A DNA stretch of 64,000 nucleotides, taken from the sequence record NZ_CP135254.1; one strand, written 5' to 3'. The position numbers are program-made. Within the stretch, counting starts at the first letter, position 1. Each line of letters starts with the position of its first letter. Shown piece after piece: positions 12,001-27,000 of the stretch. This DNA comes from a plasmid.

Positions 12001-15000
12001 CCGCATTGTGAGCGCCGACGCGGCGGGCATTATTCTGACATCCCTGGCCGTTAACCGTCGTCTGGCGGCAAATCATGACAGCGGCAACCCGGCCCTGACT
12101 CACCTTTACATGCTGCGTGATGCCCAGCTCTGGAATCACATCACCCTTCACCCGGAATGCAACGCCATTTACGCCGCGCTGGACTGATTAACGACCGGGG
12201 CGGCCATGCCGCCCCGCAGGGAGACGAAAAAATGAATTCATCAATTACGGTTCCGGCTGTCTATGTGGGTACCTATCACCAGTACAACTGCGGCAGCATT
12301 TTCGGCAAATGGTTTGATTTAACCGATTTCGACGACGAAGACGCATTCTATGACGCCTGCCGGACGCTGCACGCCGGCGAGGAAGACCCCGAGCTGATGT
12401 TTCAGGATATCGAGGGCATTCCGTCACAGTTTGCCTCTGAATCCTCTGTTAAGTGGGCGTTTATTGAGGCCTTCCGGCAGGCGCAGGACGACGGGCGCCC
12501 CGCCGCGTTTGTGGCCTGGGCAGAGTATACCGGCGAGTGCGACTATGACGCCTTTGATGACGCGTACTACGGCGAAGCGGAAAGTGAGGAAGATTTTGCT
12601 TATGGCTTTGTGGAGGACAACGGCCTGTTAAACGAGGTGCCCGAATCATTGCGCATGTATTTCGATTATGAGGCATACGCGCGGGATTTATTCAGCAGCG
12701 GGTATGTGCTCCATGACGGTTATGTCTTCAGAAACTGAATGATGTCCGGCGGGGAAGCCCGCCGGTTAAGGAAAATACGTATGAAACTTGCACCACAAAG
12801 CCGTGAGATCCTGCGCCAGTACAAAGCCCTGATAAATGCCCGCCGCCGGGATGCCGGGCAGCGGGAACTGACCACCGCCCAGGTAATGGACGAAATCTGC
12901 TATTACATGACCTGTCAGTGTGCCGTCTACATCGGCGGACACTTCATCTTACAGGGCGGTAAAGGACAGTAATCAGTAAGTTCGATGACAGGCGTCCGGG
13001 CCGGAGGGCGCCTGTCTGCCCGCGCCCAAAACCCTGGCAGGCTGCGCCTGCCGGAGAGAAACGTCGCCGCGCCTCCGGCGCCGCTCGCTCTCTTCTCCGT
13101 TCTCAGTCGCTGAAGTCTGTGAATGCGCGTATTATCCACAATAGCTTTCTGGAAAACGTTGCAGGTGCAGATTTGTCAAAATGGAATATCGCCTCATTCT
13201 CAAAAGACGAGCAGGATAAAGTCTCTGTCGATAAAGCGGCCGCCGCTGTTGCATGGCAGGAACGCATGAACAAGCCTGTTGTTCACGAACTCGTTGAACG
13301 GGAGCAGCCTGAACATCTGCGCGAATATTTTCGTGAACGGCTCCGCGTACATCGACTGAACAGTCAGCAGCTGCCCCGCGCCAATGCGCCCGAATACCAG
13401 AAGCCGGAAGACGGTGGCAGTGAGAGTAAGCCTTAATTTTTTTCCCAGGGAGGGACTGCGGTGCGTATGTCTGCTTTATTTGCTCTGACGTCTGTGTTCA
13501 GCGCGTTGAATCTTGTATTTATGCCATTCCATCCCGTCATGATGTTATGGGCTTTCGGCCTCTCTGTCGCCTTCATTATTGTCAATATAATTGCCGACAG
13601 ACTGCGTCTGTGGTCCGGTATTGCATGGGGAATGGCTGCCGCCGTAATAGTCGCTTTTATGCTTAACGGCGCACAGCCCGATGAAGAAAACCGGGTACTC
13701 ATCAGTTCATTCGCATGTATTGTCTCAGCATGGTATGCCGTGATTCAGTTCAGAAAAGAGAAGAAAGAGTCTCTGTCCTGACCGGTATTCTTTCTGTCTC
13801 TGCCTCTTCCGCTGCCTCTTCCTCATTTACTTTTCACACAATCTGCCACAGGGCCACCTTCGGCTCCCGACCCGCTGGCGCGGTTCAGTCGTCGAGCCAC
13901 ACTCCGCTAACCGCGAAAGGATGCGGTAAGCTCCGCCGAACCCGCCAGGCGGTTTCGGGCTATCGCTAGTGTCTGATGTCTGAGGTCAACGGCAGGCTTG
14001 CAGCATCCCTGTCAGGATGCGCCGCCCCTTTTACGCGCCGTCACCTGCGCTTTTCGCACCCCGGCAAACGGCCGCCGGGCTGTAAGGCGCAACGCCGTTT
14101 CGCGCCCGCGCGTTTCGTCGTTGCGGCGGGTTCCTGCTCATTCCTTGCCTGGTTTTTTCACCCCTTTGAGTCCATTCGCCGGGGCTGAGACAAGCACAGT
14201 CGCTGTCAGCCGTCCAGGGTAAATGACACGCGGTAAACCGCGCCCTGGACATCTGCCATCGCCGGTGCTCGTTTACGCCCTTGCGGCGAACGGCTCTCAA
14301 ACGGGTGAAGGTAACAACCAGGGGGAACAGAGCAGCAGGTCCCCGCAAAACGTCAAAACCGCGGCCCCGGCAACTCAACGGGTGACGGTTTTTAAAGGCA
14401 AAACAACAGAGTAAGGAGATTCATCATGGCAGCACGTGGCGTTAATAAAGTCATTCTGGTCGGACATCTGGGGCAGGACCCGGACGTGCGTTATATGCCC
14501 AACGGCGGCGCAGTGGCAAACCTGACGCTGGCCACGTCCGAAACATGGCGTGATAAGCAGACGGGAGAGATGCGCGAAAACACCGAATGGCACCGTGTTG
14601 TCATGTTCGGCAAGCTCGCGGAAGTGGCGGGAGAATACCTGCGTAAAGGCGCGCAGGTCTACATCGAGGGCCAGATGCGTACCCGTAGCTGGCAGGACGA
14701 TACCGGCGCCACGCGCTACGTCACCGAGGTGCTGGTCGGGCAGAGCGGCACCATGCAGATGCTCGGCGGTCGTCGTGGAACCGGTGAGCCTGAGAGTGCT
14801 GCGCCGCAGCAGCCCCCGCAGCCGCAGAGTCCTGCCGCCCCGGCTCAACCTGCTCAGGCCCCGGCTAAATCCCCGAAAGCGAAGGGCGGTAAAAAAGGCC
14901 GTCAGAGCGCCGCCCCGTCTCAGCTTCCTCCCCAGACTTTCCCGGACGATTACCCGCTGACCGATGACGATGTGCCCTTTTAAACCATGATGAATACGCC

Positions 15001-24000: not shown

Positions 24001-27000
24001 TAGTCCGTCGCGGGTTTCTCTCTTCATTAATATTTATTTGTCACTGTTATATTTCATCCGGCATCCTGCTGTTTATCTCTTCTGGTATTTACCCTTTGCG
24101 CTGAAAATAATAAAAACTGGTCCGGGCGTCGTCCCTGGCGGGACACGGCTGTCGTGAACAGAGCCAGCAAGCTGTCTCTGCCCGGCCCTTCGGTAAACCT
24201 CCGGGCAGCGGGCTTCCATCCTGACGCAAATTCAAAATTGCGCTTGCTGCATCCTTATCAGGATGCGCCGCTGTCACCGTGGCGATAAATACCCGCCACT
24301 CTGATGGCCGGAACGTGAATTCGATAAAGACCGAATTGGCGTTCCGGGTTGTGTGCATGCTCACCCCCGCGCTATATCGCCCGACATCATCTTTTCGCGG
24401 AGGGCGGCTTTTAGCATCAGCCGTGGCGAAAATAAAGGGGTATATAAACGCTTCGCGCCCCTTTATTTCCTCCCCGTCGGCTGCAAATTGCCCTTTGCCG
24501 CTCAGTGATGAAGTCGAACGATTTAATAAACCGCGAAGGAGAAGTTCAGCATGCACACAATTAACGTCAACACCAAGGTCAACACCGCCACTCGTGAATC
24601 AGACGAACAATTTAAAACAGACAAATATCTGCGTTATGCAGTGACCGATGGTGATGAGCGTCTGGATTTTATCCCGGCCCTCTTTTTTACGCCGTCAGCA
24701 GATAATATGGCGGCTAGCTGGTTACGCCAGCACTCCGATTACGACGGTGGTTTCTGGTCTTACTGGATCATTCCGCAGGGTGTCGGCGGAAATATCACGC
24801 CTAATCGCATCCAGTTCATCACTACGCAGACCGGGTATATCGCACCGGAAGGAAAACAGTCTTACAGGATGCGCATCCCCGGCAATTATTTTGACGGTGA
24901 CGTCAGCGCCGATGCTGCAGGAATTATTGCTACACTAATGATAATGAACTGGCTGTCATGGCAAGTGGCTGATATGGGACCGGAATATGCCCGCGTCTGT
25001 AAATATCTTGTTTCCCGTCAGGATGCGCTGAAAGATTATCTCAGCATTATTCATCATCCCGAACGGCATTTAATCTGGCGGGCGATAGACTAATCATATA
25101 CCTGAAAAAAAGACCTCATTCATGAGGTCTTTCGTTTTTAACCAGCCGGGATTGTCCGGCATTTTTATTTGCCTTGATGGCCCGGTAGATAGCTTCAATC
25201 TTTCTGGCATATGCCAGTCGTCGCATGGCCTGCCTGTCCGTTCTGCGGAATCCTGCGTTGTAGGCACCGACTGCCTCCCAGCTGACGCCCCACTTCTTAA
25301 ACGCCAGCGCCAGATAATACGCACCGGTATAAATATTCAGGCAGGCATCCGTCAGAAGATGTTCCGGTTTAATACCGAACTCCGATAACCGGGCATGGTG
25401 CTGCGAATCGATTTGCATCAGTCCGGCACCGTAGCCCGATCCCGGATTTTTTCCGATGGCATTCACCACCCATTTAGACTCCTGCCATGAAATAGCCCGG
25501 AGCAGATCCGGATCTATTTGATAATCCCGACCCGCCATATCAAAACAATCCGTAGCCCATGCAGGCGTGGATATTAAAAGCAGGGCGGCAAACGCCAGTT
25601 TTTTTCTCAAAAGACTCCCTCCGGGCCGATTCCTGCAAATACGTTAACCCAGACCAGGGCCAGACTCAACAAATATGCACTCCTCACCACAAAATCACCA
25701 CACACTACGCAAAATTAAAATTTTGCAGATTTGCATTTAAGAACAGTGGTTTAGTGTGAGTTAAATTAATTTATTTAATATAAGATTATACGATAGCGAA
25801 TCGTCAATGAATTACCGACGATTCATTAACGAATCGCTAATGAATCGCTTACGATTCATAATATTAAATTCAGGTGGTTAAGGTGAATTGACTCTAGATT
25901 CAATTCGTGATGTGATTCGCCTGGTGAATTGCAAAAAAACAGTATGAATCTAGATTCGATTCACGATTCGAATCGTGGACGATTCATGCGTAATGGCTGG
26001 AGTTTATAAAATATGAAATCTGGATTTTTATAAGGAGTATGACGTGGCTAAAGTTCAGGCTTATGTCAGTGATGAGGTTGCTGATAAAATTAATGCGATT
26101 GTTGAGAAAAGACGTGTTGAAGGGGCAAAAGATAAGGACATCAGCTTTTCAAGCATATCAACAATGTTGCTGGAACTAGGCTTGCGTGTTTATGAAGCTC
26201 AGATGGAACGCAAAGAATCTGGTTTCAATCAGATGGCCTTCAACAAGGCCTTACTGGAAAGTGTGATTAAAACGCAATTTACAGTTAATAAAGTTCTCGG
26301 CATTGAATGCCTGAGTCCTCATGTCAGTGGAAATCCGAGATGGGAGTGGCCGGGACTTATTGAAAATATCCGGGATGATGTTCAGGAGGTTATGCTCCGA
26401 TTTTTCCCTGACGAGGAGAGCGAAGACGAAGAGTAGAATAAGACTTTTCGTAGGAAGGTGATTGATTGTATAAATAGAGTGCTTTTTTATTCAAGGATGA
26501 ATAATTGTTCTATTCATTGATGATTATTCAGAATAAAGATCTATGCTTATTTAGTGACTTTATTGAAAGTGAGTTTTATAATTCAGGTGTAGTTTGAAAA
26601 TTTGAGAAGCATTAGCGTCAGAAGGTGTGACTTCTGACGCTAACTATCCATAGAACCTTCTAAGGAGGCAACCTATGTGTGCGAAGGATCGTAGTCAAAA
26701 CTCAGTATGCAGTCAAACGGAATTCATCCAATACCTCGATGATGTGTTTTCTATTTCTTCAAGTCTCTCCCTCATCCGTGACTCGCAGGGTGAGCTAGTT
26801 CATTTAAGTCCTCTTTTTGAGACACTCCTGTTGAAAGGTAGTGAACTAAAAGTATGGTTTTCATTTATTCCACTTGATGTTCGGTTAGAGCTTTTTAATG
26901 CTGAGCTCAACTCTCTATCAGGAGAGGGGCCATATTTTTCAAAAAATGTGAAGTCGATGAATCAAGTGTTGAACATATTCATTGAGTGCATATATGTAAA

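What the first reader, a model, noticed from the sequence alone, without database searches (positions are those of the whole stretch)
13840..24540. Leading-region island punctuated by four large structured repeats, likely single-strand (Frpo/ssi-type) promoters
Three ~0.55-0.6 kb elements sit at 13840, 19060 and 21340. They share a ~330-bp core at greater than 90% identity, packed with inverted repeats (for example gcagcatcc-tgtcaggatgc). A fourth divergent core lies at 24170. Each ends at the RBS of a plus-strand gene (ssb, the 19667 ORF, the 21961 ORF, the 24551 ORF). The F-like oriT nick motif at about 25700 is on the minus strand. The minus strand would therefore enter the recipient first, and it is the template for all these genes. 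This is the geometry expected for promoters that fold in ssDNA and fire before complementary-strand synthesis. The genes they drive are ssb, psiB/psiA, ardA, putative anti-restriction genes, methyltransferases, and about 15 unknown ORFs that are candidate early anti-defence functions.
Basis: partly seen in the sequence, partly recalled or inferred. Interest (0 to 1): 0.7.

Follow-up and report, generated by a model that had tools for sequence, protein, structure and literature searches.

The report
Known single-strand promoters on a plasmid
The repeats are Klebsiella-plasmid copies of the well-studied Frpo/ssi elements, DNA hairpins that let a plasmid switch on protective genes while it is still single-stranded in a new host, so the finding is correct but already known.

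Summary
The window is an IncFII(K)-type Klebsiella plasmid, 100% identical to many sequenced ones. Three ~580-bp direct repeats (13855-14425, 19081-19666, 21356-21960) are real, and each ends at the ribosome-binding site of a plus-strand operon. An R1/F-type nick motif at 25692-25708 makes the minus strand the transferred strand.

The gene-proximal ~300 nt of each repeat is homologous to F ssiD/Frpo and to published Frpo' sequences. It folds into a long imperfect hairpin that is more stable on the transferred strand, with compensatory changes across 18 copies from 9 plasmids.

- The highlighted "core" is mostly a gene-distal module, not the promoter hairpin.
- Core identity is 82-90%, not above 90%.
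- ardA lies downstream of a separate class-2 hairpin (about 11481-11724).
- The fourth element shares only the distal module.

Its own hairpin (24397-24501) matches no published Frpo/ssi sequence I could test, yet looks like a single-strand promoter.

Frpo biology has been shown in vivo and catalogued by BLAST across thousands of plasmids. Residual novelty is the fourth hairpin type and the unexplained distal module. No transcription data exist for this plasmid.

The parts
13855..14425 (-). Unit c1, a class-1 (Frpo/ssi) single-strand promoter unit upstream of ssb. It is the short-apex variant, lacking the A/T-rich hairpin tip.
   Evidence: Matches insect-metagenome Frpo'5 at 85.5% (E 4e-119). 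F ssiD aligns in two pieces, 14278-14376 and 14083-14219. Transferred-strand MFE is -160.8 (z -7.4) against -132.7 for the plus strand.
14119..14356 (-). c1 long imperfect promoter hairpin on the transferred strand.
   Evidence: Duplex view. The 300-nt window 14051-14350 folds at -99.4 on the minus strand against -80.1 on the plus strand.
14188..14216 (-). c1 inferred promoter elements on the non-template (3') arm: -35 TGGACG, a 17-nt spacer ending in TGc, and -10 region TTGTCT running into a 4x4 internal loop.
   Evidence: This assignment is inferred and has not been mapped.
It is a series of short hairpins including GCAGCATCC..GGATGC at 14003-14020. Function unknown.
   Evidence: It is 90-95% identical between copies over 160 bp. 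The transferred strand folds 11.8 kcal/mol better than the plus strand.
19081..19666 (-). Unit c2, a class-1 unit upstream of the 19667 operon. Inferred -35 to -10 lies at 19409-19436 (TGGACA, 16-nt spacer, CGGGAT).
   Evidence: F ssiD aligns to 19307-19630 at 70% (E 3e-24). Transferred-strand MFE is -152.4 against -133.6 for the plus strand.
21356..21960 (-). Unit c3, a class-1 unit upstream of the 21961 operon. The hairpin spans 21620-21892. Inferred -35 to -10 lies at 21689-21716 (TGGACG, 16-nt spacer, TTGTCT).
   Evidence: Serratia Frpo'1 matches at 78% (E 7e-78). Transferred-strand MFE z is -11.8 against -6.8 for the plus strand.
24030..24550 (-). Unit c4: an F-type distal module joined to a different gene-proximal hairpin, upstream of the ArdB/KlcA-family gene at 24551.
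24397..24501 (-). c4 hairpin, a candidate single-strand promoter. Elements at 24408-24436 are -35 TTTATT (paired), a 17-nt spacer, and TGcTAAAAG in an asymmetric internal loop of the non-template arm.
   Evidence: Across 8 plasmids 98.2% of cells are paired against 44-55% in slid controls. Six pairs carry compensatory changes. The TTTATT duplex and GCTGATGCTAAAAGC are invariant in 8 of 8.
25692..25708 (-). oriT nick-site motif GTAGTGTGT|GGTGATTT. The nick falls between 25700 and 25699 on the minus strand.
   Evidence: Context from traM, FinP and the SLT gene.
14426..18871 (+). Operon downstream of c1: ssb, DUF905, ParB-like HerB/YfjB homologue, psiB, psiA and a 107-aa ORF.
19667..21141 (+). 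Operon downstream of c2: a 75-aa ORF, a 76-aa ORF and a DUF4942 protein.
21961..23902 (+). Operon downstream of c3: ORFs of 112, 115 and 76 aa, then an N-6 DNA methylase.
24551..25093 (+). Gene downstream of c4: antirestriction protein (Pfam PF03230).
11481..11724 (-). Class-2 single-strand promoter hairpin, outside the finding's interval, upstream of the klcA/ardB-like gene at 11759 and ardA at 12232. Elements at 11500-11526 are -35 TTGCAT and -10 TAAAGT.
   Evidence: It is homologous to F ssp2 (71%), to the ColIb-P9 regions upstream of ardA and klcA, and to Frpo'4.
8832..9100 (-). Candidate class-3 hairpin upstream of the DNA methylase gene at 9122, outside the finding's interval.
   Evidence: It is 81% identical to the segments just upstream of the methylase gene in F and ColIb-P9. 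Transferred-strand MFE is -92.2 against -84.7 for the plus strand. The classification is by position only.

Best explanation
The three repeats c1-c3 are members of the Frpo/ssi ('class 1') family of single-stranded-DNA promoters of F-like and IncI1 plasmids.

Proposed mechanism:
- During conjugation the minus strand enters the recipient 5'-first from the nick at about 25700.
- As each unit arrives, its gene-proximal ~270 nt folds back on itself into a long imperfect hairpin.
- The 3' arm of the hairpin acts as the non-template strand of a sigma-70 promoter. The 5' arm is continuous with the template of the downstream genes.
- Host RNA polymerase binds the hairpin. It transcribes down the stem and out into ssb-herB-psiB-psiA (c1), the DUF4942 operon (c2) and the methylase operon (c3).
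- Transcription happens before the complementary strand is made. The transcript can also prime that strand.
- When the region becomes duplex the hairpin is lost and the promoter shuts off.

My reading of the promoter anatomy (inferred):
- The -35 is the invariant, fully paired T(G/A)GACN.
- The spacer measures 16-17 bp of helix and ends in a near-invariant TGn.
- The -10 region is interrupted by mismatches or an internal loop, so it is pre-melted.

c4 works the same way but has an unrelated hairpin, and its -10 (TGcTAAAAG) sits in a non-template bulge. Together with a class-2 hairpin and a probable class-3 hairpin further upstream, the plasmid has about six such promoters.

Shown here: homology, geometry, strand-specific covarying structure. 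Shown in the literature for homologues: single-strand-dependent transcription in vitro and in vivo. Inferred: activity of these copies and the exact hexamers.
For: 1. Homology. F ssiD, ColIb-P9 ssi and published Frpo' sequences align to the gene-proximal half of each unit. At least 5000 plasmid records and 16,847 places match the unit.

2. Geometry. The nick motif is on the minus strand at 25692-25708, and all driven genes are on the plus strand.

3. Structure.
- c3 folds at -178.2 kcal/mol (z -9.8) on the transferred strand against -155.2 (z -5.0) on the plus strand.
- The same direction holds for all six elements tested.
- It holds for 18 of 18 promoter hairpins from 9 plasmids, mean difference -10.8 kcal/mol.
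- Background 300-nt windows give +0.8 +/- 4.6.
- The same metric picks out the minus-strand group II intron, an internal positive control.

4. Covariation over 18 copies.
- 96.4% of cells are paired against 37-45% in slid controls.
- 19 pairs carry compensatory changes against 5-8 in slid controls.
- Covariation score is 0.167 against about 0.04.
- G.T to A.C in paired cells is 89:10, with two conserved G.T pairs.

5. Promoter-like duplex. T(G/A)GACN is present in 24 of 24 copies, TGn in 23 of 24, the spacer is 16-17 nt in 20 of 24, and the hexamer ends in T in 22 of 24. The four copies with a 20-nt spacer carry a 3-nt bulge that restores 17 bp of helix.

6. The class-2 and c4 hairpins follow the same grammar: -35 paired, -10 in a non-template loop.

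7. No consensus duplex promoter lies on the plus strand in any unit.

8. Literature.
- A 288-nt Frpo2 fragment drives an anti-CRISPR from the transferred strand (PMC11541004).
- 5' RACE mapped start sites of six single-strand promoters in pESBL (PMC12672017).
Against: - There are no transcription data for this plasmid or for any IncFII(K) copy.
- The -10 hexamers I assign to class 1 are weak (TTGTCT, CTGTCT, CGGGAT) and lack the A at -11.
- An alternative assignment could not be excluded without published start sites, which I could not read: -35 TTG(C/T)GG next to the A/T-rich apex, with TGGACN as the -10.
- c1 lacks the A/T-rich apex present in F Frpo, so it may be weaker.
- c4 shows little strand asymmetry in folding (-3.8 kcal/mol here, mean -1.6 over 8 copies).
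- The consensus structure was predicted on the transferred strand. That choice biases the G.T:A.C count.
- The 18 aligned copies are related, so compensatory-change counts are not independent events.
Confidence: 0.85

Rival explanations
1. The repeats are structured RNA elements. Either they are a long 5' leader of the plus-strand mRNAs, or they are antisense small RNAs transcribed from the minus strand, as in Sok or FinP-type control.
For: The sequences fold strongly on both strands (z -4 to -7 even on the plus strand). The hairpin lies between the inferred start site and the gene only in part, leaving a leader of about 145 nt. An antisense RNA would have the same sequence as the transferred strand, and so the same G.U pairs.
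Against: - Sense RNA would replace the conserved G.T pairs by A.C mismatches. The G.T:A.C count is 89:10, and the plus strand is 7-28 kcal/mol less stable.
- No Rfam family matches in 13-25 kb.
- No minus-strand promoter-like site lies inside any unit.
- The homologues in F act as promoters, since their deletion abolishes downstream expression (PMC9849209).
Confidence: 0.04
2. The repeats are priming signals only. They would be single-strand initiation sites for complementary-strand synthesis through primase or PriA assembly, and would not serve gene expression.
For: Frpo was first isolated as ssiD, a single-strand initiation signal, and its transcripts prime DNA synthesis in vitro. In vivo evidence for priming at ssp1/Frpo comes from preprint 10.64898/2026.01.09.698686. 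The distal module of short GC-rich hairpins resembles priming signals in a general way.
Against: - Every unit abuts the ribosome-binding site of a co-oriented operon.
- Homologues drive protein expression in vivo (PMC9849209, PMC11541004).
- Priming and transcription are two outputs of the same RNA polymerase event, not alternatives.
Confidence: 0.04
3. The repeats are passive dispersed repeats: recombination or gene-conversion tracts, or relics of module shuffling in the leading region. Under this view they have no single-strand function and the genes use ordinary duplex promoters.
For: The distal module is 90-95% identical between copies in one plasmid, whereas the hairpins are 62-75%. This suggests concerted evolution. 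Copy number per plasmid varies from 1 to 8. Repeat-mediated insertion or deletion of leading modules has been described (PMC3817090).
Against: - Structure is conserved through compensatory changes across plasmids at 70% identity.
- Folding is strand-specific.
- Short motifs stay invariant inside variable stems.
- No consensus duplex promoter is found upstream of the operons.
Confidence: 0.04
4. The reader's conserved ~330-bp core is itself the promoter.
For: It is the best conserved part of the unit, it is packed with inverted repeats, and it also folds better as the transferred strand.
Against: - It lies almost wholly outside the 351-nt ssiD.
- It lies outside the 288-nt Frpo2 fragment that is sufficient in vivo.
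- Its TTGAC motif is absent from the F-type version of the module (A3).
- It is joined to three different promoter hairpin types.
Confidence: 0.03

Closest known systems
F plasmid Frpo1 (ssiD) and Frpo2, also called ssp1a and ssp1b: 'class 1' single-strand promoters (Masai & Arai 1997; Couturier 2023, PMC9849209)
   Same: - Homologous sequence, 70-83% identity.
- Same position: the leading region, with the transferred strand as template, ending at the ribosome-binding site of ssb or other leading genes.
- Same long imperfect hairpin carrying TGGACN and TGTG motifs.
- Same ~600-bp repeat unit including a distal module (A2).
   Different: - Three copies here rather than two.
- c1 lacks the A/T-rich apex.
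- The cargo differs (DUF4942 and N6-methylase operons instead of ygeA/ygeB).
- No hok/sok module lies between the copies.
- No experimental data exist.
ColIb-P9 / R64 / pESBL ssi1-3 (Bates 1999; Nasim 2004; Wen 2025, PMC12672017)
   Same: Three dispersed ~330-nt repeats in the leading region upstream of ssb, psiB and ardA-type genes. The apex and the TGGAC region are conserved. A distal-module homologue lies next to them (L015 14305-14505).
   Different: These are IncI1 MOBP plasmids. The lower stem is not alignable and overall identity is low; only 25-57 nt reach BLAST significance against the window.
Class 2 (ssp2, also called Frpo3) and class 3 single-strand promoters of pESBL and F (PMC12672017; bioRxiv 10.64898/2026.01.09.698686; PMC13478746)
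   Same: The window has a class-2 homologue at 11481-11724 and a probable class-3 homologue at 8832-9100. The grammar matches c4: -35 in the duplex, -10 in a loop of the non-template arm.
   Different: c4's hairpin matches neither class.
Serratia and insect-metagenome Frpo' candidates of Samuel et al. 2024 (PMC11541004, Supplementary Table 2)
   Same: These are the closest published sequences: Frpo'5 to c1 at 85.5%, Frpo'1 to c3 at 78%. Their BLAST criterion (E below 1e-6) would have captured c1-c3.
   Different: Those are computational candidates as well, not tested experimentally.
Single-strand origins (sso) of rolling-circle plasmids and the minus-strand origin of filamentous phage (from my own knowledge; not tested here)
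   Same: Folded single-stranded DNA presents a promoter-like duplex to host RNA polymerase, which makes a primer RNA.
   Different: There is no sequence relation, and their output is priming only, not mRNA for downstream genes.

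Membership tests
Frpo/ssi class-1 single-strand promoter (c1, c2, c3) | Sequence homology to F ssiD/Frpo or ColIb-P9 ssi. | tested here: met
   ssiD aligns to c3 at 71% over 344 nt (E 2e-27), to c2 at 70% over 344 nt (E 3e-24), and to c1 at 83% over 99 nt plus 74% over 143 nt. 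Frpo' sequences match at 72-86%.
Frpo/ssi class-1 single-strand promoter (c1, c2, c3) | Located in the leading region, with the transferred strand as template for the downstream genes. | tested here: met
   The nick motif is on the minus strand at 25692-25708. The units lie 3.7-11.8 kb on the leading side, and the genes are on the plus strand.
Frpo/ssi class-1 single-strand promoter (c1, c2, c3) | Long imperfect stem-loop formed by the transferred strand. | tested here: met
   for energies and duplex views; 96.4% of cells paired and 19 compensatory pairs; the transferred strand is more stable in 18 of 18 copies.
Frpo/ssi class-1 single-strand promoter (c1, c2, c3) | -35 and -10 boxes reconstituted in the stem, oriented towards the genes. 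| tested here: inconclusive
   A conserved -35-like T(G/A)GACN, a 16-17-bp spacer and TGn lie on the non-template arm. The -10 hexamer is weak. A second assignment is possible, and I could not read the published box positions.
Frpo/ssi class-1 single-strand promoter (c1, c2, c3) | Active on single-stranded but not duplex DNA; early, transient expression in transconjugants. | not testable with these tools
   The only indirect evidence is that no consensus duplex promoter lies on the plus strand in the units.
Frpo/ssi class-1 single-strand promoter (c4) | Sequence homology of the hairpin to Frpo/ssi. | tested here: not met
   The c4 hairpin (24330-24550) has no BLAST match to 18 published sequences, to 18 kb of the F leading region, or to 28 kb of the ColIb-P9 leading region. 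Only its distal module is shared.
Single-strand promoter in the functional sense (c4) | A transferred-strand hairpin with a promoter-like non-template arm directly upstream of a co-oriented leading gene. | tested here: met
   The hairpin covaries, with 6 compensatory pairs. Elements are TTTATT, a 17-nt spacer and TGcTAAAAG. The -10 sits in a loop and is invariant in 8 of 8. The duplex form would read AAATTG in place of the -10. Strand asymmetry in folding is weak.
Class-2 single-strand promoter (ssp2) for 11481-11724 | Homology to the hairpins upstream of klcA and ardA in IncI1 plasmids and upstream of yfgB in F. | tested here: met
   71% over 292 nt to F; 69-70% to both ColIb-P9 positions; matches Frpo'4 and Frpo*1.
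Class-3 single-strand promoter for 8832-9100 | Homology to the hairpin upstream of M.EcoGIX in pESBL. | tested here: inconclusive
   It is 81% identical to the segment immediately upstream of the methylase gene in ColIb-P9 and F and folds better as the transferred strand. I did not have the published class-3 sequence or boundaries.

The most novel reading that the evidence does not exclude
Two parts of these units are not covered by the published descriptions I could read.

(a) The c4 hairpin (24397-24501) is present once per plasmid in 781 PLSDB records. It would be a fourth sequence class of single-strand promoter, driving the oriT-proximal ArdB/KlcA-type antirestriction gene.

(b) The ~250-nt distal module is the best conserved part of every unit and is shared by class-1, Frpo* and c4-type hairpins in IncF and IncI1 plasmids. 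It would be a separate element that works as folded transferred-strand DNA. One possible role is a barrier that stops complementary-strand synthesis, primed at the upstream promoter, from ironing out the next promoter hairpin.
Probability: 0.3. Interest if true: 0.5.

Novelty: already known. Interest (0 to 1): 0.2.

Why it matters
Single-strand promoters explain how conjugative resistance plasmids express SOS inhibitors, antirestriction proteins and methylases within minutes of entry, before the host can cut them. That principle is established for F, ColIb-P9 and pESBL, and homologues have been catalogued across plasmid databases. Finding them in a KPC-type Klebsiella IncFII(K) plasmid therefore adds an instance, not a concept.

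The practical value here is a precise map of about six such promoters and their operons in a clinically important plasmid backbone. The analysis also yields two testable leads: a possible new hairpin class, and a conserved distal module of unknown role.

Tried and rejected
Calls that failed or returned nothing useful:
- AP001918 was not in the collections. F was fetched as NC_002483 instead.
- The first sliding-window fold timed out and was rerun in parallel.
- The Bikard 2010 review was not held, and Masai & Arai 1997 and Nasim 2004 do not appear among the search results. The published -35, -10 and +1 positions could therefore not be checked. The supplementary figures of Couturier 2023 and Wen 2025 are images or not held.
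- CP008701, the Klebsiella variicola plasmid drawn by Samuel et al., was fetched. Its first 50 kb hold no leading region, and I did not pursue it.

Hypotheses rejected:
- The TTGACG near the base of the 5' arm as a -35, with transcription running up the stem and round the loop. Its pairing partner is absent from the 288-nt Frpo2 construct that works in vivo, and no -10 is conserved after it.
- TTG(C/T)GG next to the A/T-rich apex as the -35, with TGGACN as the -10. I disfavour this because TGGAC is fully paired inside a GC-rich helix, and the whole apex is missing in c1-type copies. It is not excluded.
- A protein-coding explanation for the small ORFs that overlap the units, which some records annotate as 'hypothetical protein'. 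The copies differ by many 1-2-nt indels (A3).

Negative scans:
- Rfam at gathering thresholds finds nothing in the interval.
- The duplex promoter scan finds no plus-strand site in the units, and its total count equals the shuffle expectation.
- The YfjB/HerB preprint reports no consensus binding motif, so it gives no link between the ParB-like protein and the distal module.

Full report
**What the window is.** The interval 13500-25900 is 100% identical to many sequenced Klebsiella, Raoultella and Enterobacter plasmids of the IncFII(K)/MOBF/MPF_F type. RefSeq annotation of one of them gives these plus-strand genes:
- DNA methylase (9122), DUF1380, a klcA/ardB-like antirestriction gene (11759), ardA (12232)
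- ssb (14426), DUF905, a 666-aa ParB-like protein, psiB, psiA
- several small ORFs, DUF4942, an N-6 methylase, an antirestriction gene (24551)
- then the SLT gene on the minus strand, followed by traM and the tra operon

Rfam finds FinP at 26605-26681. This is the leading region of an F-like plasmid.

**Check of the observation.**
- The three repeats are real. I place their boundaries at 13855-14425 (c1), 19081-19666 (c2) and 21356-21960 (c3).
- Each ends at a Shine-Dalgarno sequence plus ATG.
It is 90-95% over the distal 160 bp. It is only 62-75% over the gene-proximal 250-285 bp.
- The fourth element (24030-24550) aligns with the others only in its distal part.
- A nick motif GTAGTGTGT|GGTGATTT lies on the minus strand at 25708-25692. 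It has 3 mismatches to the F sequence and is the only match in the window, but a match at that stringency arose in 14 of 100 shuffles.
- The transferred strand is therefore the minus strand.

**What the repeats are.** Samuel et al. 2024 give the sequences of the known Frpo/ssi elements in Supplementary Table 2.
- F ssiD (Frpo1) aligns to c3 21582-21912, to c2 19307-19630, and to c1 14278-14376 plus 14083-14219.
- Serratia Frpo'1 matches c3 at 78% (E 7e-78).
- An insect-metagenome Frpo'5 matches c1 at 85.5% (E 4e-119).
- The Frpo-homologous part is therefore the gene-proximal half of each unit.
- The two F repeats also extend about 620 nt from the start codon and include a distal module (A2).
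- The whole unit matches at least 5000 plasmid records and 16,847 places, almost all unannotated.

**Structure and strand.**
- The c3 unit folds at -178.2 kcal/mol as the transferred strand (z -9.8) and -155.2 as the plus strand (z -5.0).
- With my own dinucleotide shuffles, all six elements tested fold better as the transferred strand, by 7-28 kcal/mol.
- I scanned 300-nt windows across 1-30000, the method of Wen et al. 2025. The deepest minus-strand minima are:
  - 14051-14350 (-99.4 against -80.1 on the plus strand)
  - 21601-21900 (-90.0 against -76.1)
  - 8801-9100 (-85.0 against -76.2)
  - 19301-19600 (-82.2 against -63.6)
  - 24276-24575 (-78.7 against -71.2)
  - 11426-11725 (-71.2 against -61.1)
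- The minus-minus-plus difference is +0.8 +/- 4.6 in 928 background windows. It is -10.7 to -14.6 inside c1-c3.
- The only other strong outliers are the group II intron on the minus strand. That serves as a positive control for the metric.

**Comparative evidence.** I aligned 18 units as the transferred strand: the window, F, and seven Klebsiella, Enterobacter, Salmonella and E. coli plasmids (A3).
- The consensus structure is one long hairpin plus several distal hairpins.
- 96.4% of cells form standard pairs, against 37-45% when partners are slid.
- 19 pairs carry compensatory changes, against 5-8 in slid controls.
- The covariation score is 0.167, against about 0.04.
- Paired cells hold 89 G.T but only 10 A.C, and two G.T pairs are conserved in 14-17 of 18 copies. 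Such pairs would be A.C mismatches in the plus strand or in sense RNA.
- The structure was predicted on the transferred strand, so this count is biased in its favour. The energy comparison is not: the transferred strand is more stable in 18 of 18 hairpins, with G+T content of 0.50-0.55.

**Where the promoter lies (inferred).** Topology requires that the 5' arm, which is continuous with the gene template, be the template strand. The 3' arm is then the non-template strand, read from loop to base.

The Frpo2-acrIIA4 construct that works in vivo keeps the full 5' arm. It keeps the 3' arm only down to ...CCCCGGCGACAGGGAC. The promoter is therefore in the upper two-thirds of the stem, and the conserved TTGACG at the base of the 5' arm is not needed as a duplex.

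On the 3' arm, counts over 24 copies are:
- T(G/A)GACN in 24 of 24, always paired with an invariant GTCC
- a 16-17-nt spacer in 20 of 24
- TGn at the end of the spacer in 23 of 24
- a hexamer ending in T in 22 of 24, which runs into a mismatch or a 4x4 internal loop

The four F Frpo2-type copies with a 20-nt spacer carry a 3-nt bulge on that arm. The helix between the two elements is therefore still 17 bp.

I read this as a paired -35, an extended -10 TG, and a pre-melted -10. That arrangement would explain activity in the hairpin and not in the duplex.

The alternative places the -35 at TTG(C/T)GG next to the A/T-rich apex, with TGGACN as the -10. It puts the -10 inside a GC-rich helix, and it fails for c1-type copies, which lack the apex. 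I could not read the published box positions, so I cannot exclude it.

The class-2 hairpin follows the same grammar with better hexamers: TTGCAT paired and TAAAGT in a loop, at 11500-11526. So does c4.

**The fourth element.**
- c4 has an F-type distal module joined to a 105-nt hairpin (24397-24501).
- That hairpin has no BLAST match to any of the 18 published Frpo/ssi/Frpo'/Frpo* sequences. It also has none in 18 kb of the F leading region or 28 kb of the ColIb-P9 leading region.
- It occurs once per plasmid in 781 records, mostly Klebsiella, Enterobacter, Citrobacter and Salmonella.
- It always lies upstream of the oriT-proximal antirestriction gene.
- Across 8 plasmids the hairpin is 98.2% paired, against 44-55% in slid controls, with 6 compensatory pairs against 0-1.
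- The TTTATT/AAATAA duplex and the unpaired GCTGATGCTAAAAGC are invariant while neighbouring pairs covary.
- In the duplex form the plus strand would read TTTATT-17-AAATTG. A usable -10 exists only in the hairpin.
- Its folding is nearly strand-symmetric, so the evidence that it acts as single-stranded DNA is weaker than for c1-c3.

**The rest of the system.**
- 11481-11724 is homologous to F ssp2, to both class-2 positions of ColIb-P9 (upstream of ardA and of klcA), and to Frpo'4. It precedes the klcA-like gene and ardA. ardA therefore belongs to this promoter, not to c1-c4.
- 8832-9100 is 81% identical to the segment just upstream of the methylase gene in F and ColIb-P9. That is where Wen et al. 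place class 3.

The plasmid thus has about six predicted single-strand promoters, as pESBL does.

**The distal module (unexplained).**
- It is the best conserved part of the units within this plasmid.
- It is not needed for promoter activity in the published construct.
- It sits next to class-1 hairpins in F and ColIb-P9, next to Salmonella Frpo* hairpins, and next to c4.
- It folds better as the transferred strand in 18 of 18 class-1 units and 8 of 8 c4-type units, at G+T of about 0.50.
- It contains a hairpin with clear compensatory changes (A3 columns 486-503).
- It lies on the side from which complementary-strand synthesis would arrive. One hypothesis is that it delays conversion of the next promoter hairpin, by analogy with the ssp2 roadblock. 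I could not test this.

**Comparison with what is known, and verdict.**
- Frpo was described in 1997 and the ColIb-P9 ssi repeats in 1999.
- In vivo dependence of early expression on Frpo1 and Frpo2 was shown in 2023.
- 13,089 Frpo homologues in 6,006 elements were reported in 2024.
- Three promoter classes with mapped start sites were reported in 2025.
- Frpo has since been annotated by BLAST across PLSDB.
- c1-c3 match the query sequences used in those scans far above their thresholds.

The finding is therefore correct but already known. What remains possibly new is the c4 hairpin type and the role of the distal module.

Noticed in passing
window 11481-11724 (minus strand): A class-2 single-strand promoter hairpin lies upstream of the klcA-like gene and ardA. 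Its elements TTGCAT and TAAAGT sit on the non-template arm. It is homologous to F ssp2 and to both class-2 sites of ColIb-P9.
   Followed up: yes
window 8832-9100 (minus strand): A strongly folding transferred-strand hairpin lies just upstream of the DNA methylase gene at 9122. It is 81% identical to the equivalent segment of F and ColIb-P9, where RefSeq annotates a ~100-aa hypothetical protein. It is probably the class-3 promoter.
   Followed up: partly
window 19987-20254 and 22792-23059: A paralogous 76-aa gene pair (76% nucleotide identity) with a weak, below-threshold HU-like Pfam match. One copy is followed by a DUF4942 protein and the other by an N-6 methylase. This suggests duplicated two-gene modules.
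   Followed up: partly
window 13790-13850, 19040-19075, 21300-21350; also F (L002) upstream of Frpo1 and Frpo2: A polypyrimidine tract on the plus strand flanks the distal end of every unit, so the tract is purine-rich and unpaired on the transferred strand. In F it is a GAAGAAGAG-type run.
   Followed up: no
window 4226-4775 and 6776-7400: Minus-strand-specific folding coincides with a group II intron on the minus strand (Rfam RF02005 at 7056-7281). It served as an internal control for the strand-asymmetry measure.
   Followed up: partly
window 15351-17351: The 666-aa ParB-like protein appears, by shared position and annotation, to be the homologue of F YfjB. A July 2026 preprint renamed that protein HerB and reports that it reprograms host transcription after entry.
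   Followed up: no
L003 (NZ_CP130343.1) 3205-3551 and 2826-2914: This IncFII/IncR plasmid carries an inverted partial copy and a 90-bp fragment of the distal module next to IS elements. That is consistent with the repeats acting as recombination substrates.
   Followed up: no
window 19898-19917 and 22704-22725 (minus strand): Two strong terminator-like hairpins with T-runs lie on the minus strand just after small plus-strand ORFs. Their stems are palindromic, so they may act in both directions.
   Followed up: no
window 63826-63913 and 46700-46785: Rfam finds CopA-like antisense RNA (replication control) and the antisense-to-traG RNA, as expected for an IncFII backbone.
   Followed up: no
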